Shown here: positions 3,475 to 26,213 of the stretch, one piece after another
Layout of the letters: every line of letters starts with the position of its first letter
Position numbering within the stretch: position 1 is the first letter of the stretch
NCBI RefSeq assembly: GCF_044542795.1
Contig: NZ_JBITVE010000002.1
Location: 250,058-314,057, forward strand
Direction of reading: 5' to 3'
DNA length: 64,000 bases
Origin: Microbacterium sp. NPDC077663
Lineage (GTDB): Bacteria > Actinomycetota > Actinomycetes > Actinomycetales > Microbacteriaceae
Position numbers and translations under genes: made by a program
Notes under the pieces: generated by a model
The model's input: only the letters and a program-made list of their open reading frames with translations
Database searches by the model: none
Told to the model about the DNA's origin: nothing

Positions 3475-4294
3475 CCGTCGTGGAGACCTCTCCGTGGATA
3501 CCGAGCGACATGACCGGCCACGAGCGGGGCAGGCCGGCGTTGCCGGTGCTGGAGCCACCGTCCACGCGGATGATCGTCCCGGTCACCCAGTTGGCCGCGT
3601 CGGAGGCGACCCAGAGCACGGCTTCGCCGATGTCTTCAGGCGTGCCGTCGCGGCCGAGCGGGTTCTGGTCGGCGCCCTGACGGTACTTCTCCTCGTACGG
3701 GTTCACCGGGCTTTGCACCGCAACGAAGCCGGGCGAGACCGCGTTGACGCGGATGCCGAGGGGGCCGAGCTCGAGCGCCGACGCCTTCGTCCACATCTCG
3801 AGGGCGGCCTTCGAGGTGGAGTACGGCGCCGCCGCCGTACGGGCACGGAGCGCGGCACCGGAGGTGATGTTCACGACGCTGCCGATGCGACCTTCGGCCT
3901 TCGCGCGCTTCGCGAACGCGACGGTCGTGAGGACGGCGGAGCGGACGTTGACGTCTTGGATCGCGTCCCACACCTTCGCGGTGAGCTCGAGCAGCGGCGT
4001 GGAGGGGTAGATGCCCGCTCCGTTGACGACGAGGTCGACCGGGCCGGTGCGCTCCCACGCGGTGTCGATCGCGGCACCGGGGTCGGTCTCGCTCGTGAGG
4101 TCGGCGACGATGTTGCCGACGGTGGCGCCTGCGACGGATGCCGCGATCTGCCCGGCCGCGTCGCGCAGTGCGTCCGCGCGGTAGTCGACGAGCGTGACGG
4201 CCGCGCCGGCCCGGGCGAGCACGGTCGCGATGCCGATGCCGATGCCGCCGGCACCGCCGGTGACGACGGCGTGGGTGATGGTGGTGTCAGACAT
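3467..4294 (-). CDS. SDR family oxidoreductase
   Basis: N-terminal TGGAGGIG Rossmann motif and a YxxxK active-site region (YSTSK); 275 aa. Confidence 0.8.
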   Translation of the reverse strand: MSDTTITHAVVTGGAGGIGIGIATVLARAGAAVTLVDYRADALRDAAGQIAASVAGATVGNIVADLTSETDPGAAIDTAWERTGPVDLVVNGAGIYPSTPLLELTAKVWDAIQDVNVRSAVLTTVAFAKRAKAEGRIGSVVNITSGAALRARTAAAPYSTSKAALEMWTKASALELGPLGIRVNAVSPGFVAVQSPVNPYEEKYRQGADQNPLGRDGTPEDIGEAVLWVASDAANWVTGTIIRVDGGSSTGNAGLPRSWPVMSLGIHGEVSTTDA

Positions 4295-5198
4295 GCGTGT
4301 GGATCTCTCCTCGGTCGAGCCAGCCGGAGAACATGCCCTCCGTGTTGTAGGTCAGGTGGATGCCGCCACGCGCGTCGACGGCGATGAGCCCGCCGCGGCC
4401 GTCGGCGTCACCGAGATCAGCCATGGCAGCGTGGACGGCGTCACCGAGCGTCGCGTCGGTGTGTTTCAGGTGGGCGTGCACGGAGTGCGCGAGCGCCTGG
4501 CGCATGAACTCCTCACCGACGCCGGTGCATGAGATCGCGACCGTGTCGTTCGCGGCCCAGGTGCCGGCGCCGATGATCGGGCTGTCCCCGACCCGTCCGG
4601 GCAGCTGGTTGGCTGTGCCGCCGGTCGAGGTCGCCGCAGCGAGCGCCCCGGACGCATCACGGGCGACAGCGCCGACCGTGCCGTGACGCGGACCGGTGAG
4701 CTCCTTCGCACGCAGCTTCTCGAGCTGGGCGACGCGGGCGGGGGTGATGAAGTACTCGGGCGGGACAAGGTCGAGCCCCCACGCCTCGACCATCGACAGC
4801 GAAGGGTCGACGAGCAGCACGTGCGAGGTCTGCTCCATCACCGCACGCGCCGCCAGCACGGGGTTGCGAACGGCCCGCACGCCGGCGACGCCACCGGCGT
4901 CGCCGGCACCCACCATGACAGCCGCGTCGAGCTCGGCGTATCCGTCGGCGTTCAACGCGGCGCCGTGCGCCGCGTTGAACAGGGGCGAGTCCTCGAGGAC
5001 GAGCACGGCCGCGCAGACGGCGTCGAGGGCAGGGCCACCGGCGTCCAGCACGACTTTGCCTGCTCGCACCGCCTTCGCGAGCGCGGCGTGGTACTCGGCC
5101 TTTTCATCATCGACGAGCAGGGAGGGTCGGGCTCCAGCGCCGCCGTGGATAGCGAGGGCGGGACCGTCACTGACGTCCGCGCGCAGGGTCGTGAGCAT
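4287..5198 (-). CDS. isoaspartyl peptidase / L-asparaginase (Ntn-hydrolase, plant-type asparaginase family)
   Basis: Start placed at the internal Met (MLTTLRADV...) because the upstream extension is Arg/Gly-rich junk. Conserved AIHGGAG, GTVGAVA and a threonine nucleophile region (ISCTGVGE). Confidence 0.75.
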   Translation of the reverse strand: MLTTLRADVSDGPALAIHGGAGARPSLLVDDEKAEYHAALAKAVRAGKVVLDAGGPALDAVCAAVLVLEDSPLFNAAHGAALNADGYAELDAAVMVGAGDAGGVAGVRAVRNPVLAARAVMEQTSHVLLVDPSLSMVEAWGLDLVPPEYFITPARVAQLEKLRAKELTGPRHGTVGAVARDASGALAAATSTGGTANQLPGRVGDSPIIGAGTWAANDTVAISCTGVGEEFMRQALAHSVHAHLKHTDATLGDAVHAAMADLGDADGRGGLIAVDARGGIHLTYNTEGMFSGWLDRGEIHTHV

Positions 5199-20182: not shown

Positions 20183-20815
20183 TCAGACACGACTGCGCGC
20201 TTCGCGTCCGATGGCGAATCGGTCGAGCGCACCGGTGGCGGCGAGTCCGCGAGCCAGGAACCATGAGAGGGCGCCCGCGATGACCGCGCCCGACAGGACG
20301 GTGGAGACGAGGTAGACACCCGTGAACGCGGCGTCCGCCCCCGCGTACCAGAGGACGAGGTTGTTGATGCCGCCGGCGAGCGCAGCGCCTGCGCCGGCGA
20401 GGATCGCGACCGGAAGGGTGAACCGACGGTACAGGAAGAGGAGCACGATCAGCTCGGCGCCGAGGCCCTGGACGAGTCCCGCCTCGATGGTGAGGAAGCC
20501 GCCCCAGCTGTTGCCCACGAGCGCCGACACGACGGCCGCGAGGGTCTCGGTGTACATCGCGGCGCCGGGCTTGCGGATGATCAGGGCACCGAGCACCCCG
20601 GCGAACAGCCAGGGTCCGTCCAGGAGCCCCTGCAGGCCGGGCAGCAACGGCTCGAGCAGCGTCTTCGGGCCGAGGTAGCCGATGTTCCAGAGCAGGAAGA
20701 TGAGGCCGGACGCGACACCGAGCACGGAGGCCACGACGATGTCGATGACCCGCCAGCGGAAGCGGTTCGGCGATGAGGTGGTCCGGGTCTCGGACGTGGA
20801 CGCGACAGCGTGCAT
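20183..20815 (-). CDS. ykoE: ECF transporter S component (YkoE-like, HMP/thiamine-related)
   Basis: 210 aa multi-TM protein with an IIRKPG-like motif. It sits first in the S-A-T gene order directly downstream of a TPP riboswitch. Confidence 0.7.
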   Translation of the reverse strand: MHAVASTSETRTTSSPNRFRWRVIDIVVASVLGVASGLIFLLWNIGYLGPKTLLEPLLPGLQGLLDGPWLFAGVLGALIIRKPGAAMYTETLAAVVSALVGNSWGGFLTIEAGLVQGLGAELIVLLFLYRRFTLPVAILAGAGAALAGGINNLVLWYAGADAAFTGVYLVSTVLSGAVIAGALSWFLARGLAATGALDRFAIGREARSRV

Positions 20816-20821
20816 TTCGTT

Positions 20822-20912
20822 CTCCTCCCTGCGCCGGCATGATCCGGATCAGGTTCGACGGTCGAAGCGTGGATCGCTTCCTCTCAGCCCGGCTCACCGG
20901 ACTCCCGTGGTT
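20822..20912 (-). promoter_or_regulatory. TPP (THI-box) riboswitch
   Basis: The minus-strand sequence CACGGGAGUCCGGUGAGCCGGGCUGAGAGG...CGAACCUGAUCCGGAUCAUGCCGGCGCAGGGAGGAGAAC matches the THI element core (GCUGAGA ... ACCUGAUCYGGAUAAUGCCAGCGNAGGGA). The RBS GGGAGGAG is embedded at its 3' end. Confidence 0.8.
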
Positions 20913-20956
20913 GTGCGTCGAGTATAGCCACAGGCAGACCGCGCTACCGTGGTCCG

Positions 20957-22342
20957 GTGACCGTGGACGACGCTGATCCCCGTATGCGCCGGCGCCGGCG
21001 CGATGCGAAGCCTGCCTCCCCCTCCCCCGACCACACGGCGCTCGGCTGGGTGGATGACGAGGGGCGCCCGGTGAGCGCCGCACAGCCGCGCCCGGCCACC
21101 TTCGACCTGCTGCCTCCCCCGCGTCGACGCCGCGGCATCCCCCTGGCGGTCCTCGGTGTCCCGGCCCTCGCCGTGCTCGCGATCGCCACGGCCTACACCA
21201 CCGCCATGCTGCTCTGGCCGCTGAACAACGTGTCGCCCACGACGACCACGACCGATGCCGCTGCGCTGACCGGCGCGCCGTCCGCGATCGCGTGGCCGGC
21301 GGACGGTGAGTCCGCCGTCGGCATCGCCGGATTCGCTCCGGCGGCCTCGTCCACGACGCCCGCGCAGATGGCCAGCACGGCCAAGCTGGTCACGGCGCTC
21401 GTGATCCTCGACCAGGCGCCTCTCGCCGCGGGCGAGCAGGGTCCCGCCTACGAGTTCACCTACGCCGATCGTCAGGAGTACTGGCGCTACGTCGCGCAGA
21501 ACCAGTCCGCCCTCAACGTGCCCGACGACGGGTCCCTGACGGAGTACCAGATGCTCCAGGGGATGCTCATCGCCTCGGCCAGCAACTACGCCGACCGCCT
21601 CGCCACCGACGCCTTCGGATCCGTCGAGGACTACGTCACCGCCGCGAACGCCTGGCTCGCCGAGAACGGACTCGACGGGATCACGGTGACGGATGCCTCC
21701 GGCTACGACCGTGGCAACGTCGCGACGCCGGCGGCCATGGTCGCGCTGGCGGAGAAGGCCATGGCCGACCCCGTCGTCGCGGAGATCGTCGCGACGGAGT
21801 CCGCGGAGCTGCCCGGCGCCGGCGAGTTCGAGAACACGAATGCCCTCCTCGGCACCGACGGTGTCGTGGGCCTGAAGACCGGAAGCTACGCCGGCTCGTA
21901 CAACCTCGTCGCCGCCCGGACGGTCGATCTGGGCGGCGGCGCCACGACGCTGTTCGCGTCGGTCGCCGAGGCGCCCACCGATGGCGCCCGCGTCGACGAG
22001 ACCGAGGCCCTGCTCGACGCGGTCGCCCAGGAGGCATCCGTCACCACGACCCTGCCAGCCGGGACCGTCGTCGGAGAGGTCACCACCGCCTGGGGGGCGA
22101 CCACCACGGTCGTCACCGACGAGGACGCCGCGTTGCACCTGTGGAACGGCGCGACGGCCACGACCGAGGCATCCTTCGACATCGATGCCGACGCCGCGGC
22201 CGGAGCGGATGCCGGCACGGTCACACTCTCGGGCCCGGCCGACGAGGTCGACGTGCCGGTGAGTGTGACGACGGCGATCTCCGGCCCCGACCCGTGGTGG
22301 CGTCTCACCCACCCGATGGAGCTCGTGGGCGCGAACGGCTGA
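20957..22342 (+). CDS. D-alanyl-D-alanine carboxypeptidase (peptidase S11, PBP5-like)
   Basis: SxxK (STAK), SxN (SASN) and KTG (GLKTGS) motifs; N-terminal signal/TM region. GTG start; an alternative ATG lies at about 20984. Confidence 0.8.
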   Translation: MTVDDADPRMRRRRRDAKPASPSPDHTALGWVDDEGRPVSAAQPRPATFDLLPPPRRRRGIPLAVLGVPALAVLAIATAYTTAMLLWPLNNVSPTTTTTDAAALTGAPSAIAWPADGESAVGIAGFAPAASSTTPAQMASTAKLVTALVILDQAPLAAGEQGPAYEFTYADRQEYWRYVAQNQSALNVPDDGSLTEYQMLQGMLIASASNYADRLATDAFGSVEDYVTAANAWLAENGLDGITVTDASGYDRGNVATPAAMVALAEKAMADPVVAEIVATESAELPGAGEFENTNALLGTDGVVGLKTGSYAGSYNLVAARTVDLGGGATTLFASVAEAPTDGARVDETEALLDAVAQEASVTTTLPAGTVVGEVTTAWGATTTVVTDEDAALHLWNGATATTEASFDIDADAAAGADAGTVTLSGPADEVDVPVSVTTAISGPDPWWRLTHPMELVGANG

Positions 22343-22345
22343 CCC

Positions 22346-23278
22346 TCAGGCGAAGCGGACCGTCTGCTGCAGCCGCGTCCGCACGTCGAACAGCTCGTTT
22401 CCCCCGATGTCGCGGGCGCCGCTGACACCGCGGCGCAGGACGGTCGCGAGCACACTCCGGGCGACGACGGCTACGGGCAGACCCTTCACCTTTCCGAGCT
22501 CCTCGACCGCCGTGGCGACGTCGTCGTCGGGCAGCACGACGAGAGCCGCACTGAAGCGCACCTTCGCCGCGCGGCCGAGCGCGCGCGCCGCGAGCACGAG
22601 CTGTGCGACCGGCGCCCCCACGACGGCGTCGCCCTCCAGCTCGCCGCGTCGGGTGCGCACCGGGGCACCGAAGTCCTCGGACAGCACAGCGTAGAGTCCG
22701 CTCGGCCCGAGCACGATGTGATCGAGCTTCACGTCGGGATCCCTCCGGTCGGCGGCGACGTCGTGCCACACCGTGTACCCCATGCCGAGTTCGGCGACGA
22801 TGCGTGCCGTCGCCTCCTCGGCGAGCGCGTCGGCCAGCAGCCGGCGGACCTCGTGCGGCGCGCTGCGGACGAGAGCGGGGTCGTAGGGGTCGGCGAGGTC
22901 CACACCGCGCCCGGCCCACTCGCGGATGAGATCCAGGTAGCGCTCGCGGCGCCATCCGCCGGGCTGTCCGAACGACCGGGCGCGCGGGCGGGTGTCGGCC
23001 TGGCGCGCGTGCGGGCGCCACATCGGGGCCTCCGCATCCGGACCGTACGAGACGGTCTGCCCGAAGCCGTGCCCGCGGTCGTACGCGGCGCGCGCGCCCG
23101 CGGTCCCGACCAGTTCCCAGGCACGCTGCACCTGCACGAACTGCGCCGCGTCGCCACCGGTGTCGGGGTGCGTCTGACGCAGACGCAGGCGATACGCCTT
23201 GCGGAGGTCGTCCTCGCTCGCGTCCGCGGCCACGCCGAGGACCTCGTAGGCGGAGGCCGAAAGAGGACTGTCGAACAC
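22346..23278 (-). CDS. J-domain (DnaJ-like) protein with C-terminal NERD-like domain
   Basis: N-terminal J domain with an HPD motif (YEVLGV...LRQTHPDTGGD) and a C-terminal region resembling NERD (KLDHIVLGPSGLYAVLSEDFG). GTG start inferred 1 nt after the upstream stop, with a GGAG RBS. Confidence 0.6.
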   Translation of the reverse strand: MFDSPLSASAYEVLGVAADASEDDLRKAYRLRLRQTHPDTGGDAAQFVQVQRAWELVGTAGARAAYDRGHGFGQTVSYGPDAEAPMWRPHARQADTRPRARSFGQPGGWRRERYLDLIREWAGRGVDLADPYDPALVRSAPHEVRRLLADALAEEATARIVAELGMGYTVWHDVAADRRDPDVKLDHIVLGPSGLYAVLSEDFGAPVRTRRGELEGDAVVGAPVAQLVLAARALGRAAKVRFSAALVVLPDDDVATAVEELGKVKGLPVAVVARSVLATVLRRGVSGARDIGGNELFDVRTRLQQTVRFA

Positions 23279-23279
23279 G

Positions 23280-24341
23280 TCAGCTCCAGAGGGGGACGCT
23301 CGGACGGAACGCGAGCGCCCTGTCGGCGGTGTCGGCCGGCACCTCCTCGAGGCGAGCGGGCCGCCACCGCGGCATGCGGTCCTTGTCGACGAGCTGTGCA
23401 CGGATGCCCTCGACGAGATCGGGCTGCGTCCGCCCGAACCACTCGACGAGCGCGTACTCCTGCGCCAGCGCGGAGCGCAGGCCCGGCAGGGTCCGCGCCG
23501 AACGCACGGCGGCGAGCGTGACGGTGAGTGCGGTCGGTGCCTGGGTCTCGAGCAGGTCCGCGGTGGCCGCGGCATCCGGTTCCGGCCTGTCGCGCAGACG
23601 GGCGATGATGCTCGCGACGGTGTCGGCAGCGAACGCGTCGTCGACCCACTCCCGCGACGCCTCGAGGCGCGAGGGCTCGGGGGTCTCGTCGAACAGCATC
23701 GCGATCTCGGTGGGTGTGTCGGGGTCGGCCCGGGTCACGAGCGCGTGGCGCACGTCGTCGAGGCGGTCGGCGGGCACGAGATGGTCGGCGAACCCCGCAT
23801 AGACCGCGTCGGCGGCATCCATCGTCCCGCCGGTGAGCGCGAGGTATTCGCCGACGCGTCCGGGGGCGTGCGCGAGCAGCCACGAACCGCCGACGTCGGG
23901 GGTGAACCCGATGCGGGTCTCGGGCATCGCCAGTCGTGATCGTTCGGTGACGATCCGCACCGAGGCGTGACCGGCCAGCCCGATACCGCCGCCCATCGTG
24001 ACGCCGTCCGCGAAAGCGACAATCTGCTTCGGGTACTCCGCGATCCTCGCGTTCAGCGCGTACTCGTCGCGGAAGAAGCCCATCGCAGCCTCGGCGTCGC
24101 CGGCGAGGATCTGCTCCCGCAGCGTCCGCACGTCGCCACCCGCGCAGAACCCACGGTCGCCGGCGCCGTCGAGCAGGACGAGACGGATGTCGGGGTGATG
24201 CTCCCACGCGTCGAGCGCCTCGGCGATGCCCTGGATCATGCCGTGGTCGACGGCGTTGATCGCCTCGGGCCGGTCGAGCGTGATGCGTCCGACGCTCCCC
24301 TCCGCGCGGACGAGCAGACGGGATGCCGCGGGTTCACTCAC
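23280..24341 (-). CDS. 3-hydroxyisobutyryl-CoA hydrolase-like enoyl-CoA hydratase/isomerase family protein
   Basis: 353 aa crotonase fold (FCAGGD, GVTMGGG) with an HIBCH-like extended C-terminus. Confidence 0.8.
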   Translation of the reverse strand: MSEPAASRLLVRAEGSVGRITLDRPEAINAVDHGMIQGIAEALDAWEHHPDIRLVLLDGAGDRGFCAGGDVRTLREQILAGDAEAAMGFFRDEYALNARIAEYPKQIVAFADGVTMGGGIGLAGHASVRIVTERSRLAMPETRIGFTPDVGGSWLLAHAPGRVGEYLALTGGTMDAADAVYAGFADHLVPADRLDDVRHALVTRADPDTPTEIAMLFDETPEPSRLEASREWVDDAFAADTVASIIARLRDRPEPDAAATADLLETQAPTALTVTLAAVRSARTLPGLRSALAQEYALVEWFGRTQPDLVEGIRAQLVDKDRMPRWRPARLEEVPADTADRALAFRPSVPLWS

Positions 24342-24386
24342 CCGGGCAACGTTACCGGCCCGATCCTCGGCGCGAGCCGTGCGGGA

Positions 24387-24863
24387 TCAGGCCCGGGCAG
24401 GGCGCGGAGCCCGACGGCGCGGCGCCCGCGCGGGCGCGGCCGTCTCGACATCCGGCCGCTGCACGGGGATCTCGGTCGTCACGAGCTCGACGACGTCGAC
24501 CGGCTCGTCGTCCGCCTCGAGACGCAGCGCCTGGACAAGGGCCAGTCCGTGACGCGTCGTGATGACGAGCCGCTGGAACTCGGGGTCGCCCTCGAGGTCG
24601 ATCACGACCGACGGACGACGTCGCCGGATGAGGACGAAATCGTCGCCGCCGGCAGAGCGCCACCGCCCCATGGCCACCGCCCGTGGGATGACGGTCCCGG
24701 GGGTCGGGACACCCCGCAGCCACGTCCACGGGTCGTCGACGAGCTGCACCTTCGCGATGTGCGTCCGCTCGACGCGGACGGCCTCCTTGCGGAACGACAG
24801 CGCACGCTCGGTGGCCGAGAGAGCGACCTCCAGTCGCGACGAGTCGAGCAGCAGCGTCACCAT
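24387..24863 (-). CDS. hypothetical protein (possible bacterial PH-like domain)
   Basis: 158 aa ORF with consistent codon usage and no recognisable catalytic motif. Confidence 0.5.
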   Translation of the reverse strand: MVTLLLDSSRLEVALSATERALSFRKEAVRVERTHIAKVQLVDDPWTWLRGVPTPGTVIPRAVAMGRWRSAGGDDFVLIRRRRPSVVIDLEGDPEFQRLVITTRHGLALVQALRLEADDEPVDVVELVTTEIPVQRPDVETAAPARAPRRRAPRPARA

Positions 24864-24935
24864 GGAATCAGTCTGCCAAACAGGTCCGGTGAGACGGATG
24901 CCGCCTGGGCAACGATCCGATCTCGACCACGGACA

Positions 24936-25763
24936 TCACCCCTGGATGCGGGGAAAAGAACCGGTCGGAGGGGCGAACTCGTCGATCGCGTGCGGTAGCG
25001 GGAACTGGGCCACCGCGGCGATCAGCCCCGCGACGGTCTGCTCCTTCGCGATGACGCTGACACCGAGCCCCGCACGACGGGCATCCTTGGCCGTGCGCGG
25101 GCCGATGGCGGCGATGACGGTGCCGGACGGGATGTCGGGGAACTGCTCGTGGACCTGCTCGGCGACCGACCCGCTGGTGACGAGGATCGCGTTGATGCGT
25201 CCCGAGCGGACGTCGGTGGCCACCTTCTCGGTCACGGGCACGCCGACGGTGCGGTAGGCGACCACGCTGCGGACATCGTGCCCCGCCTCGACCAGCAGCC
25301 GCGTCAGTACCGGCTTGGCGAGTTCGCTGCGGAGGGTGAGCACGCGCATCGGTTGCGGCTCGAGTGCGATGAGCTGCGCGGCCATGCCGGCGGCGGAGTT
25401 GTCGTCGTCGGGGACGAGATCGACGCGGTAGCCGACCGCCCCCAGGGCTGCGGCGGTCGTCTCACCGACGGCGGCGACGCGTGTGGTGTGCGGGATGACG
25501 GCGCGGTACGCGTGCAGGACGTCGACGGTCGTCGAACTGGTGAGGGTCACCCAGTCGAATTCGCCGGCCGCCAGGTCCCGCAGCGCCGACTCGAGGTCAG
25601 TGGGGTCTTCGGACGGTGCGAAATTGATGAGCGGTGCGATGACCGGCGTCGCCCCCTGTGCGCGCAAGGCGGCAGCGACGCTGTCTCCCCACGGACCACC
25701 GCGAGGCACGAGCACCCGCCACCCCTTGAGGGGTTTCGGTGCTGCCGCAGCAGGTGTGTTCAT
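24936..25763 (-). CDS. hemD: uroporphyrinogen-III synthase
   Basis: 275 aa with HemD-like two-lobe similarity (WRVLVPRG ... ILVTSGS ... IGPRTA). Confidence 0.8.
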   Translation of the reverse strand: MNTPAAAAPKPLKGWRVLVPRGGPWGDSVAAALRAQGATPVIAPLINFAPSEDPTDLESALRDLAAGEFDWVTLTSSTTVDVLHAYRAVIPHTTRVAAVGETTAAALGAVGYRVDLVPDDDNSAAGMAAQLIALEPQPMRVLTLRSELAKPVLTRLLVEAGHDVRSVVAYRTVGVPVTEKVATDVRSGRINAILVTSGSVAEQVHEQFPDIPSGTVIAAIGPRTAKDARRAGLGVSVIAKEQTVAGLIAAVAQFPLPHAIDEFAPPTGSFPRIQG

Positions 25764-25946
25764 GGTTCGACTCTCGTATAGGCGGTGGCCGCCCCAGAGC
25801 GAGACGGCCGACGCTCAGCGGAACGATGCACGACGTGCGACGTTCGGGACCCTGTCGTCGGCAGCATCTGCGCCATCGCCGCTGCCTGTTCCGAGCATAC
25901 CCCGGGTCGTCAGCGGCGATGCGGAGACGGAATCCCGTCGCCGCGG

Positions 25947-26213
25947 TCAGCGGGTGTACAGCCGGACGGCACCCCAGACGACGAGCCCGATCGCGGCGGC
26001 GGCGCCGACGGCGGCGATCACGGCGCCCGTCGGGTTGCGGTCCGCGAACTCGCGAGCCGAGACCTGCGCCCGGCGGGTGGCCCGCGCGGCACGCTTGGGG
26101 ACGTTCGCCTTCTCTTCGATCGCGGCGAGCGCCGCCTTCAACTCCGCGCGTGCCCGCTCGACGGGATCCGAGATGCCGAGGGGGACGGCGGTACGGGGGA
26201 GATCAGAACTCAT
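25947..26213 (-). CDS. DUF3618 domain-containing small membrane protein
   Basis: 88 aa with a coiled N-terminus and a C-terminal TM helix; overlaps the upstream gene by 11 bp. Confidence 0.6.
   Translation of the reverse strand: MSSDLPRTAVPLGISDPVERARAELKAALAAIEEKANVPKRAARATRRAQVSAREFADRNPTGAVIAAVGAAAAIGLVVWGAVRLYTR

What the first reader, a model, noticed from the sequence alone, without database searches (positions are those of the whole stretch)
22346..23278. J-domain fused to a NERD-like nuclease-related domain
The N-terminus carries a canonical HPD J-domain. The C-terminal half resembles NERD (DHIVLGPSGLYAVLSEDFG...VVLPDD), a domain associated with DNA processing and mobile or defence contexts. 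A DnaJ-type co-chaperone domain tethered to a NERD module is an uncommon architecture. It would suggest Hsp70 recruitment to a nucleic-acid-linked function. The gene is separated by one nucleotide from an enoyl-CoA hydratase-family gene.
Basis: inference. Interest (0 to 1): 0.6.

Follow-up and report, generated by a model that had tools for sequence, protein, structure and literature searches.

The report
J-domain co-chaperone with dead NERD domain
This Microbacterium gene encodes a small Hsp70 (DnaK) co-chaperone whose targeting half is a nuclease-like NERD domain that has lost its cutting residues; it is a conserved, uncharacterised housekeeping protein of one bacterial family, not a defence or mobile-element nuclease.

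Summary

The interpretation needs correcting in three ways.
- The catalytic (D/E)xK triad is lost. It reads L-S-E here, with lysine in 0 of 152 relatives against 17 of 17 true NERDs, so nuclease activity is unlikely.
- The gene is a core chromosomal gene. It has no defence or mobile context and no gene partner conserved across genera. The adjacency to the enoyl-CoA hydratase-family (ECH) gene is Microbacterium synteny only.
- The architecture is already labelled in databases (PF00226+PF08378), though I found no paper on it.

Best reading: a class C J-domain protein that uses an inactivated NERD module, derived from membrane-anchored actinobacterial NERD proteins, to direct DnaK to a specific, still unknown ligand. 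Interest is moderate.

The parts
22346..23278 (-). Whole gene: 310-aa J-domain/NERD-like protein, GTG start at 23278, TGA stop at 22346-22348
   Evidence: ORF and sequence. The identical protein is called on a public contig. More than 2,800 homologues were found, the best at 96% identity, and the named ones are Microbacterium.
23284..23287 (-). GGAG Shine-Dalgarno, 5 nt before the GTG, lying inside the end of the ECH_2 gene (translational coupling in this genome)
   Evidence: Read directly.
23069..23251 (-). J-domain, residues 10-70 (four helices)
23162..23170 (-). HPD motif (H37 P38 D39), the DnaK-activating tripeptide
   Evidence: CAC CCC GAC on the minus strand. Present in 149 of 149 aligned relatives.
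22982..23068 (-). Disordered linker of variable length, residues 71-99
   Evidence: pLDDT below 50 for residues 74-93. Mean pairwise identity is 22%, with large indels among relatives.
22913..22981 (-). Conserved strand-helix motif, residues 100-122 (ARSFGQPGGWRRERYLDLIREW; G104, G107 and R111 invariant). This is the N-terminal element of the NERD module.
   Evidence: Invariant columns. Model strand 101-103 and helix 108-122 with pLDDT about 94. The same motif lies at the extreme N-terminus of J-less actinobacterial NERD proteins: motif-HMM E 5.7e-6 to 0.01, against 0.31 or worse for reversed controls.
22514..22858 (-). NERD-like PD-(D/E)xK core, residues 141-255. It retains E155 and D186-H187.
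22676..22684 (-). Degenerate catalytic triad: L199-S200-E201 in place of (D/E)-(S/T)-K
   Evidence: CTG TCC GAG on the minus strand. The spacing from the DH motif is the same as in true NERDs. True NERDs have [DE][ST]K in 17 of 17. In the family, position 199 is L (114), R (16) or E (6), and position 201 is E (129) or A (7), with K in 0 of 152.
22349..22513 (-). C-terminal alpha/beta extension, residues 256-310, shared with actinobacterial NERD proteins
   Evidence: The hhalign alignment runs to query column 207. pLDDT 92-97. R300 is near-invariant.
23280..24341 (-). Context only: the upstream ECH_2 (3-hydroxyisobutyryl-CoA hydrolase-type) gene. It is not a partner conserved across genera.
   Evidence: Pfam ECH_2 380.8 bits. 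It lies upstream in 75 of 80 Microbacterium loci, but directly adjacent in only about half. It is absent from that position in Rathayibacter, Agromyces and Cryobacterium.

Best explanation
This is a class C (type III) J-domain co-chaperone, specific to the family Microbacteriaceae.

1. Inferred from established J-domain biology: the N-terminal J-domain, with its invariant HPD, docks on ATP-bound DnaK and triggers ATP hydrolysis. DnaK then clamps whatever polypeptide is held nearby.
2. Shown in the model: a roughly 30-residue disordered linker of variable length gives reach.
3. Shown: residues 100-310 are a complete copy of an actinobacterial NERD-protein module. It comprises the N-terminal GxPGG...R...Y strand-helix, the PD-(D/E)xK core and a C-terminal extension. 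Its (D/E)xK catalytic residues have been lost, while E155, D186-H187 and S200 are kept and the module remains under purifying selection.
4. Inferred: this pseudo-nuclease module no longer cuts. It acts as the binding or targeting domain that decides where DnaK is loaded. The likely target is nucleic acid, a nucleoprotein or a membrane-proximal partner.

The module descends from membrane-anchored NERD proteins. Cryobacterium and Mycetocola orthologues still carry a two-helix hydrophobic (predicted transmembrane, TM) hairpin between the motif and the core. In that arrangement both the J-domain and the NERD core face the cytoplasm at the membrane.
For: J-domain:
- Pfam DnaJ is above cut-off, and HPD is present in 149 of 149 relatives.
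- No G/F region, zinc-finger or DnaJ C-terminal domain was detected. Full-length DnaJ models score 10-20 times below their cut-offs.

NERD homology and fold:
- 19 of 28 members hit Pfam NERD.
- The C-terminal query alone retrieves bona fide NERD proteins that score 60-67 Pfam bits.
- hhalign gives 99.5%, E 8e-23.
- The AF2 model has pLDDT 88.2 and pTM 0.82.

Loss of catalysis:
- Lysine is present in 0 of 152 relatives, and the first acidic residue in only 6 of 152, against 17 of 17 intact triads in true NERDs.
- No lysine is conserved anywhere in the module.

Purifying selection:
- The core shows 43% and the motif 49% mean pairwise identity across genera, against 22% for the linker.

Core, non-mobile gene:
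- Housekeeping neighbours in six genera or lineages, and no PADLOC hit.

Origin:
- The motif occurs at the N-terminus of J-less TM-NERD proteins, including one with an intact D-T-K.
- TM-hairpin J-NERD variants exist.

Precedent:
- The degenerate NERD of S. aureus SmdA works in cell division, not as a demonstrated nuclease (PMC9040797).
Against: - No experiment supports this. DnaK stimulation, the ligand and the cellular role are all inferred.
- E155, D186, H187 and S200 remain almost invariant, so a remodelled site with some chemistry or metal or ligand binding cannot be excluded.
- The C-terminal module is near-neutral (pI 7.1), which gives no support for strong non-specific DNA binding.
- No conserved neighbouring gene points to a client.
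- The pTM of 0.82 hints that the J-domain may dock on the module. That would suggest autoinhibition rather than simple tethering, but no PAE or coordinates were available to check.
Confidence: 0.65

Rival explanations
1. An active NERD nuclease that is coupled to DnaK. In this view the C-terminal domain cuts or processes DNA or RNA, and the J-domain recruits Hsp70 to that reaction.
For: NERD homology and the PD-(D/E)xK fold are real. Two of the four canonical active-site positions (E155, D186) plus H187 and S200 are nearly invariant.
Against: The (D/E)xK lysine is absent in 152 of 152 relatives. The preceding acidic residue is L, R, H or Q in 146 of 152, whereas 17 of 17 true NERDs keep [DE][ST]K at identical spacing. 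No conserved lysine exists elsewhere in the module.
Confidence: 0.08
2. A component of an anti-phage defence or mobile-element system, the usual context in which NERD domains are reported.
For: NERD domains occur in several defence systems. This is literature context only (the titles listed).
Against: There is no PADLOC match. The gene has a fixed chromosomal position among hemD, ECH_2, the S11 peptidase and a thiamine-type ECF transporter in 80 Microbacterium species. Neighbours in other genera are metabolic. It occurs in hundreds of species genomes, as a core gene does.
Confidence: 0.03
3. A membrane- or envelope-associated organiser, analogous to S. aureus SmdA. In this view the dead NERD module binds a protein partner at the membrane or division site, and the J-domain brings DnaK there. 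This is a specific sub-case of the best explanation with a protein ligand rather than a nucleic-acid one.
For: The module derives from TM-anchored NERD proteins. Cryobacterium and Mycetocola orthologues keep a TM hairpin. In SmdA a degenerate NERD is required for a cell-division function (PMC9040797). The module's neutral pI argues against generic DNA binding.
Against: The window protein and most orthologues have no hydrophobic segment. No envelope or division gene is consistently adjacent across genera. The S11 carboxypeptidase neighbour is convergent and specific to Microbacterium.
Confidence: 0.2
4. A cis-regulated protein. In this view the NERD-like module is itself the DnaK client, or the J-domain is auto-inhibited by docking onto it, so the protein acts as a stress-responsive switch rather than an adaptor.
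For: The pTM of 0.82 for a two-domain protein with a disordered linker hints at a confident inter-domain arrangement. The conserved basic and hydrophobic helix 108-122 resembles a DnaK-binding or J-docking segment, which is inference only.
Against: No PAE or coordinates were available to verify docking. No HspR (HAIR) operator or heat-shock signal was found in the window. This mode is rare among known J-proteins.
Confidence: 0.1

Closest known systems
Class C (type III) J-domain proteins of bacteria, such as DjlA and HscB
   Same: It has a single J-domain with HPD plus a specialised non-DnaJ domain that targets DnaK/Hsp70. It has no G/F region, zinc finger or DnaJ C-terminal domains. The literature reports 2,712 different class C architectures, so unusual partner domains are expected (PMC10410713).
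   Different: The partner domain here is a NERD/PD-(D/E)xK fold. It is not mentioned in the main text of PMC10410713, and no paper in the library holds both 'NERD domain' and 'J domain'. DjlA is anchored by an N-terminal TM segment and has a C-terminal J-domain, and HscB binds IscU. Neither resembles this module.
NERD family (Pfam PF08378), especially the membrane-anchored or coiled-coil actinobacterial NERD proteins (P0250, P0259, P0264)
   Same: Homologous over the core and the C-terminal extension (hhalign 99.5%). They share the AEE.TA / WHD / DH..GP.G motifs and the N-terminal G.PG..R..Y motif.
   Different: The [DE][ST]K catalytic triad is replaced by L-S-E. The window protein falls below the Pfam gathering score. 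A J-domain is fused at the N-terminus, and the TM region has been lost in most genera.
SmdA of Staphylococcus aureus (PMC9040797)
   Same: A lineage-specific conserved protein with a degenerate NERD domain that lacks several canonical residues. It functions outside classical nuclease contexts, and a conserved His in its NERD is required. The DH histidine is likewise invariant here.
   Different: SmdA has an N-terminal TM helix and no J-domain. No sequence relationship beyond the shared NERD family was tested. SmdA is from Firmicutes and this protein is from Actinobacteria.
CbpA (curved-DNA-binding protein, a nucleoid-associated J-protein of E. coli)
   Same: It shows that a J-domain protein can also bind DNA. 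Some JGI annotations of family members use this name.
   Different: CbpA is a class B DnaJ homologue with DnaJ C-terminal domains. The NCBIfam CbpA model scores 17.9 bits against a 403-bit cut-off, and only over the J-domain. DNA binding has not been shown here.
PD-(D/E)xK nucleases McrC, Can2 and FokI cleavage domains (fold level)
   Different: Sequence identity is 7-15%, and no sequence-level PDB relative exists even with a profile. The catalytic lysine is absent.

Membership tests
J-domain protein (Pfam PF00226), class C | J-domain scoring above the curated threshold | tested here: met
   47.9 bits against a 27.8-bit cut-off, residues 10-67, profile positions 2-63 of 63.
J-domain protein (Pfam PF00226), class C | HPD tripeptide in the loop between helices II and III | tested here: met
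   H37-P38-D39 lies between model helices 22-36 and 44-57. It is invariant in 149 of 149 relatives.
J-domain protein (Pfam PF00226), class C | Absence of the class A/B hallmarks (G/F region, CXXCXGXG zinc finger, DnaJ C-terminal domains) | tested here: met
   No Pfam hit other than DnaJ and NERD. The DnaJ equivalog models score 28-40 bits against cut-offs of 338-619 bits, over the J-domain only.
J-domain protein (Pfam PF00226), class C | Stimulates the ATPase of the cognate Hsp70 (DnaK) | not testable with these tools
   This needs a biochemical assay.
NERD (Pfam PF08378) | Score at or above Pfam's gathering threshold over the domain | tested here: not met
   20.2 bits against 22.1, and only profile positions 3-53 of 111. 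Some relatives pass, for example P0216 at 23.8 bits. Many carry a precomputed PF08378 assignment.
NERD (Pfam PF08378) | Demonstrable homology to bona fide NERD proteins | tested here: met
   hhalign 99.5%, E 8e-23, 157 columns, against 17 proteins. Two of them were confirmed as NERD at 60-67 Pfam bits. 19 of 28 family members hit NERD at E<=0.01.
NERD (Pfam PF08378) | PD-(D/E)xK restriction-endonuclease-like fold | tested here: met
NERD (Pfam PF08378) | Catalytic signature E ... D ... (D/E)-x-K | tested here: not met
   E155 and D186 are kept, but (D/E)xK has become L199-S200-E201. Lysine is present in 0 of 152 relatives, against 17 of 17 in true NERDs.
Anti-phage defence system or mobile-element gene | Match to a known defence-protein model, or location in a defence island or mobile element | tested here: not met
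   PADLOC gave 0 families. The context is housekeeping and syntenic.
CbpA-type nucleoid-associated J-protein | Class B architecture with DnaJ C-terminal domains, plus DNA binding | tested here: not met
   The NCBIfam CbpA model scores 17.9 bits against a 403-bit cut-off, over the J-domain only. DNA binding itself is not testable here.
SmdA-like membrane NERD protein | N-terminal membrane anchor followed by a cytoplasmic degenerate NERD | tested here: not met
   The window protein has no hydrophobic segment. Cryobacterium and Mycetocola orthologues have an internal two-helix hairpin.

The most novel reading that the evidence does not exclude
The dead NERD module is a sequence- or structure-specific nucleic-acid or nucleoprotein binder. 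On this reading the protein is a dedicated adaptor that loads DnaK onto a DNA- or RNA-bound complex, for example to dismantle a stalled or membrane-tethered nucleoprotein assembly. That would be the first functional link between Hsp70 and the NERD family. It would also be an instance of a nuclease fold being re-used as a chaperone-targeting domain, fixed as a core gene of a whole bacterial family.
Probability: 0.25. Interest if true: 0.6.

Novelty: new variant of a known kind. Interest (0 to 1): 0.4.

Why it matters
Class C J-proteins decide where Hsp70 acts, and most bacterial ones have no known client. This protein is conserved in every Microbacterium genome examined and in many sister genera, so it probably serves a housekeeping need specific to that family.

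It shows a nuclease fold that has lost its chemistry and been turned into a chaperone-targeting module. Intermediates are still visible: a membrane-anchored active NERD, then a membrane-anchored J-NERD without the lysine, then the soluble J-NERD without the acid or the lysine.

It also gives a tractable handle on the NERD family, which is large and almost unstudied. Finally, it warns against reading 'NERD' as 'nuclease/defence' in annotation.

Tried and rejected
- PADLOC scan: no hit.
- Sequence search of the PDB. The single protein matched only J-domains. The C-terminal profile A3 matched nothing even at E 10.
- The afdb50 fold library was not available.
It was repeated with the 7-sequence alignment A4.
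- Search for an HspR/HAIR operator (CTTGAGT-N7-ACTCAAG, up to 3 mismatches): none in the window.
- Sigma-70 promoter and intrinsic terminator scan of 21800-26000: none. The gene is probably co-transcribed with ECH_2.
- Literature. 'NERD domain' plus 'J domain' returned 0 papers. 'NERD' plus 'DnaJ' plus 'nuclease' returned 3 papers whose titles and abstracts concern plant gene silencing and RNA polymerase II repair. The large J-protein census (PMC10410713) does not mention NERD in its main text, and its supplements are not held. The review by Barriot et al. is not held.
- K184 was considered as a 'migrated' catalytic lysine. It was rejected because only 16 of 30 genus-level representatives have it.
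- The ECH_2 gene was considered as a functional partner. It was rejected on synteny grounds.

Full report
**What is there**

The finding's coordinates hold a minus-strand ORF. A GTG at 23278 opens a 310-codon frame that ends at the TGA at 22346-22348. The TGA of the upstream ECH_2 gene (23280-23282) lies one nucleotide before the GTG. A GGAG sits 5 nt upstream of the start, which is typical translational coupling. The mechanical ORF list extends the frame to an ATG at 23575. That stretch overlaps the ECH_2 gene in another frame, and homologues with a different upstream gene start at the same MFDSPLSASAYE (L045).

**Domain tests**

- Pfam detects the J-domain clearly: 47.9 bits against a 27.8-bit cut-off, residues 10-67.
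- Pfam detects NERD only below threshold: 20.2 bits against 22.1, covering profile positions 3-53 of 111.
- NCBIfam shows only J-domain-length matches to DnaJ models, far below their cut-offs. There are no class A/B hallmarks, so this is a class C J-protein.
- The PDB holds sequence relatives of the J-domain only.

Because the Pfam NERD result was borderline, I tested it in four independent ways.

1. An exhaustive search with residues 100-310 alone against 1.84 billion representatives returned 149 clusters. The weak tail of these (E 1e-5 to 1e-3) consists of bona fide NERD proteins, for example P0264 at 67.6 Pfam bits and P0259 at 60.6 bits.
2. 19 of 28 family representatives hit Pfam NERD at E<=0.01, the best at 3.6e-7.
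3. hhalign of the family's C-terminal alignment against 17 true actinobacterial NERD proteins gives 99.5% probability, E 8e-23, over 157 columns. This covers the core and a C-terminal extension.

The NERD assignment is therefore correct.

**The active site is gone**

True NERDs read DH-x3-GP-x-G-x4-[DE]-[ST]-K, and 17 of 17 in my reference set do so. The window protein has identical spacing but reads DHIVLGPSGLYAV-L-S-E.

Across 152 aligned relatives:
- The position of the acidic residue is L (114), R (16) or E (6), with other residues in the rest.
- The lysine position is E (129), A (7) or another residue. It is never K.
- No lysine is conserved anywhere in the module. K184 is present in only 16 of 30 genus-level representatives.
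- E155 (152 of 152), D186 (148), H187 (150) and S200 (151) remain.

The core is under purifying selection, with 43% mean pairwise identity across genera against 22% for the linker. The domain is therefore functional but very unlikely to be a canonical nuclease.

**Anatomy beyond the two Pfam domains**

Residues 100-122 (ARSFGQPGGWRRERYLDLIREW) form a confidently modelled strand plus helix. G104, G107 and R111 are invariant. An HMM of this motif finds it at the extreme N-terminus of J-less actinobacterial NERD proteins: P0250 at 5.7e-6, P0269 at 7.6e-4, P0237 at 5e-3 and P0248 at 0.01. Reversed-sequence controls score 0.31 or worse.

P0250 has the motif, then a hydrophobic region, then a NERD core with an intact D-T-K. 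Residues 100-310 are thus a whole NERD-protein module onto which a J-domain and a flexible linker were grafted.

A second architecture exists in Cryobacterium and Mycetocola: J-domain, motif, a hairpin of two hydrophobic helices, a coiled segment, then the NERD core. In these the acidic residue is often kept (E-S-V) but the lysine is already lost. This suggests stepwise decay, from an active TM-NERD, to a J-TM-NERD without the lysine, to the soluble J-NERD without the acid or the lysine.

**Distribution and context**

The closest homologues are Microbacterium proteins at up to 96% identity. More than 2,800 homologues were scored. They are named 'DnaJ domain-containing protein' and occasionally 'nuclease-related domain-containing protein'.

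Named relatives come from Agromyces, Glaciihabitans, Rathayibacter, Herbiconiux, Humibacter, Salinibacterium, Cryobacterium, Mycetocola and other Microbacteriaceae. Many already carry precomputed PF00226+PF08378 assignments.

In those 80 loci the order is ECH_2, J-NERD, convergent S11 carboxypeptidase, ECF transporter, and this is backbone synteny. ECH_2 lies upstream in 75 of the 80, but about half have an LssY_C gene inserted between it and the J-NERD gene. In Rathayibacter, Agromyces, Cryobacterium and two uncultured lineages the neighbours are unrelated metabolic genes. PADLOC finds nothing.

The gene therefore has no defence or mobile context and no conserved operon partner. The 1-nt spacing to ECH_2 is an incidental feature of this clade. 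No HspR operator, promoter-like site or terminator-like site was found nearby. In this genome the gene is probably read through from ECH_2.

**Mechanism**

Shown:
- an intact, invariant J-domain;
- a flexible tether;
- a conserved, folded NERD module that lacks its catalytic residues;
- core-gene behaviour.

Inferred from established J-protein biology:
- The J-domain activates DnaK's ATPase.
- The C-terminal module provides the specificity, which is the standard logic of class C J-proteins. These are known in thousands of architectures (PMC10410713).

The ligand is unknown. A nucleic acid or nucleoprotein is plausible from the fold. A membrane-proximal protein partner is plausible from the module's ancestry, from the TM variants and from the SmdA precedent. 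SmdA carries a degenerate NERD that is required for staphylococcal cell division (PMC9040797). The near-neutral pI of the module (7.1) gives no support to generic DNA coating. The high pTM hints that the J-domain might dock on the module, but this could not be checked without PAE or coordinates.

**Verdict**

The domain architecture is right. The nuclease, defence and mobile overtones are not supported, and neither is the significance attached to the ECH neighbour.

The architecture is already visible in database annotations, but I found no description or experiment. I rate it a new variant of a known kind: a class C J-protein with a pseudo-nuclease targeting domain. Interest is moderate (0.4).

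Noticed in passing
window 20809-20918 (-): A TPP (thiamine pyrophosphate) riboswitch (RF00059, 58.9 bits against a 54.3-bit gathering score) lies directly upstream of the ECF-type S-component gene (PF09819, 20183-20815, -) and its ATPase and T components. The transporter is therefore probably a thiamine or HMP-precursor uptake system, not a cobalt one.
   Followed up: partly
window 22340-22348: The stop codons of the convergent Peptidase_S11 gene (+, ends at 22342) and the J-NERD gene (-, ends at 22346) are only 3 nt apart. No terminator-like hairpin was found in 21800-26000, so termination of both transcripts must occur inside the opposing gene or by another mechanism.
   Followed up: partly
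window 24387-24863 (-): A 158-aa ORF between hemD and ECH_2 has no Pfam match. It is conserved at the same position in 51 of 80 Microbacterium loci (55-85% identity). It is an uncharacterised conserved protein.
   Followed up: no
L045 about 4220-5080 (+), and about half of loci L002-L081: In roughly half of Microbacterium genomes a gene for an LssY_C-domain membrane protein (Pfam 254 bits) sits between ECH_2 and the J-NERD gene. It is absent from this window. This indel shows that the tight ECH_2/J-NERD coupling is not ancestral.
   Followed up: yes
P0201, P0282, P0188, P0216, P0225, P0288 (L084 6001-7344): Cryobacterium and Mycetocola orthologues (420-480 aa) carry two hydrophobic helices and a coiled segment inserted between the GxPGG motif and the NERD core. 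This is a membrane-anchored form of the same J-NERD protein.
   Followed up: partly
P0237, P0252, P0269 (about 500-525 aa): More distant actinobacterial relatives have the same N-terminal motif, three to five hydrophobic segments, a NERD core whose lysine is also replaced (T-S-V, E-T-V or D-S-A) and an extra C-terminal domain of about 150 aa with no Pfam hit. They form a second, J-less family of probably inactive membrane NERD proteins.
   Followed up: no
L082, L083, L085: A NUDIX hydrolase gene recurs near the J-NERD gene in Rathayibacter, Agromyces and an uncultured lineage, where it is immediately upstream (L085 115-582). This is probably remnant synteny and was not examined further.
   Followed up: no
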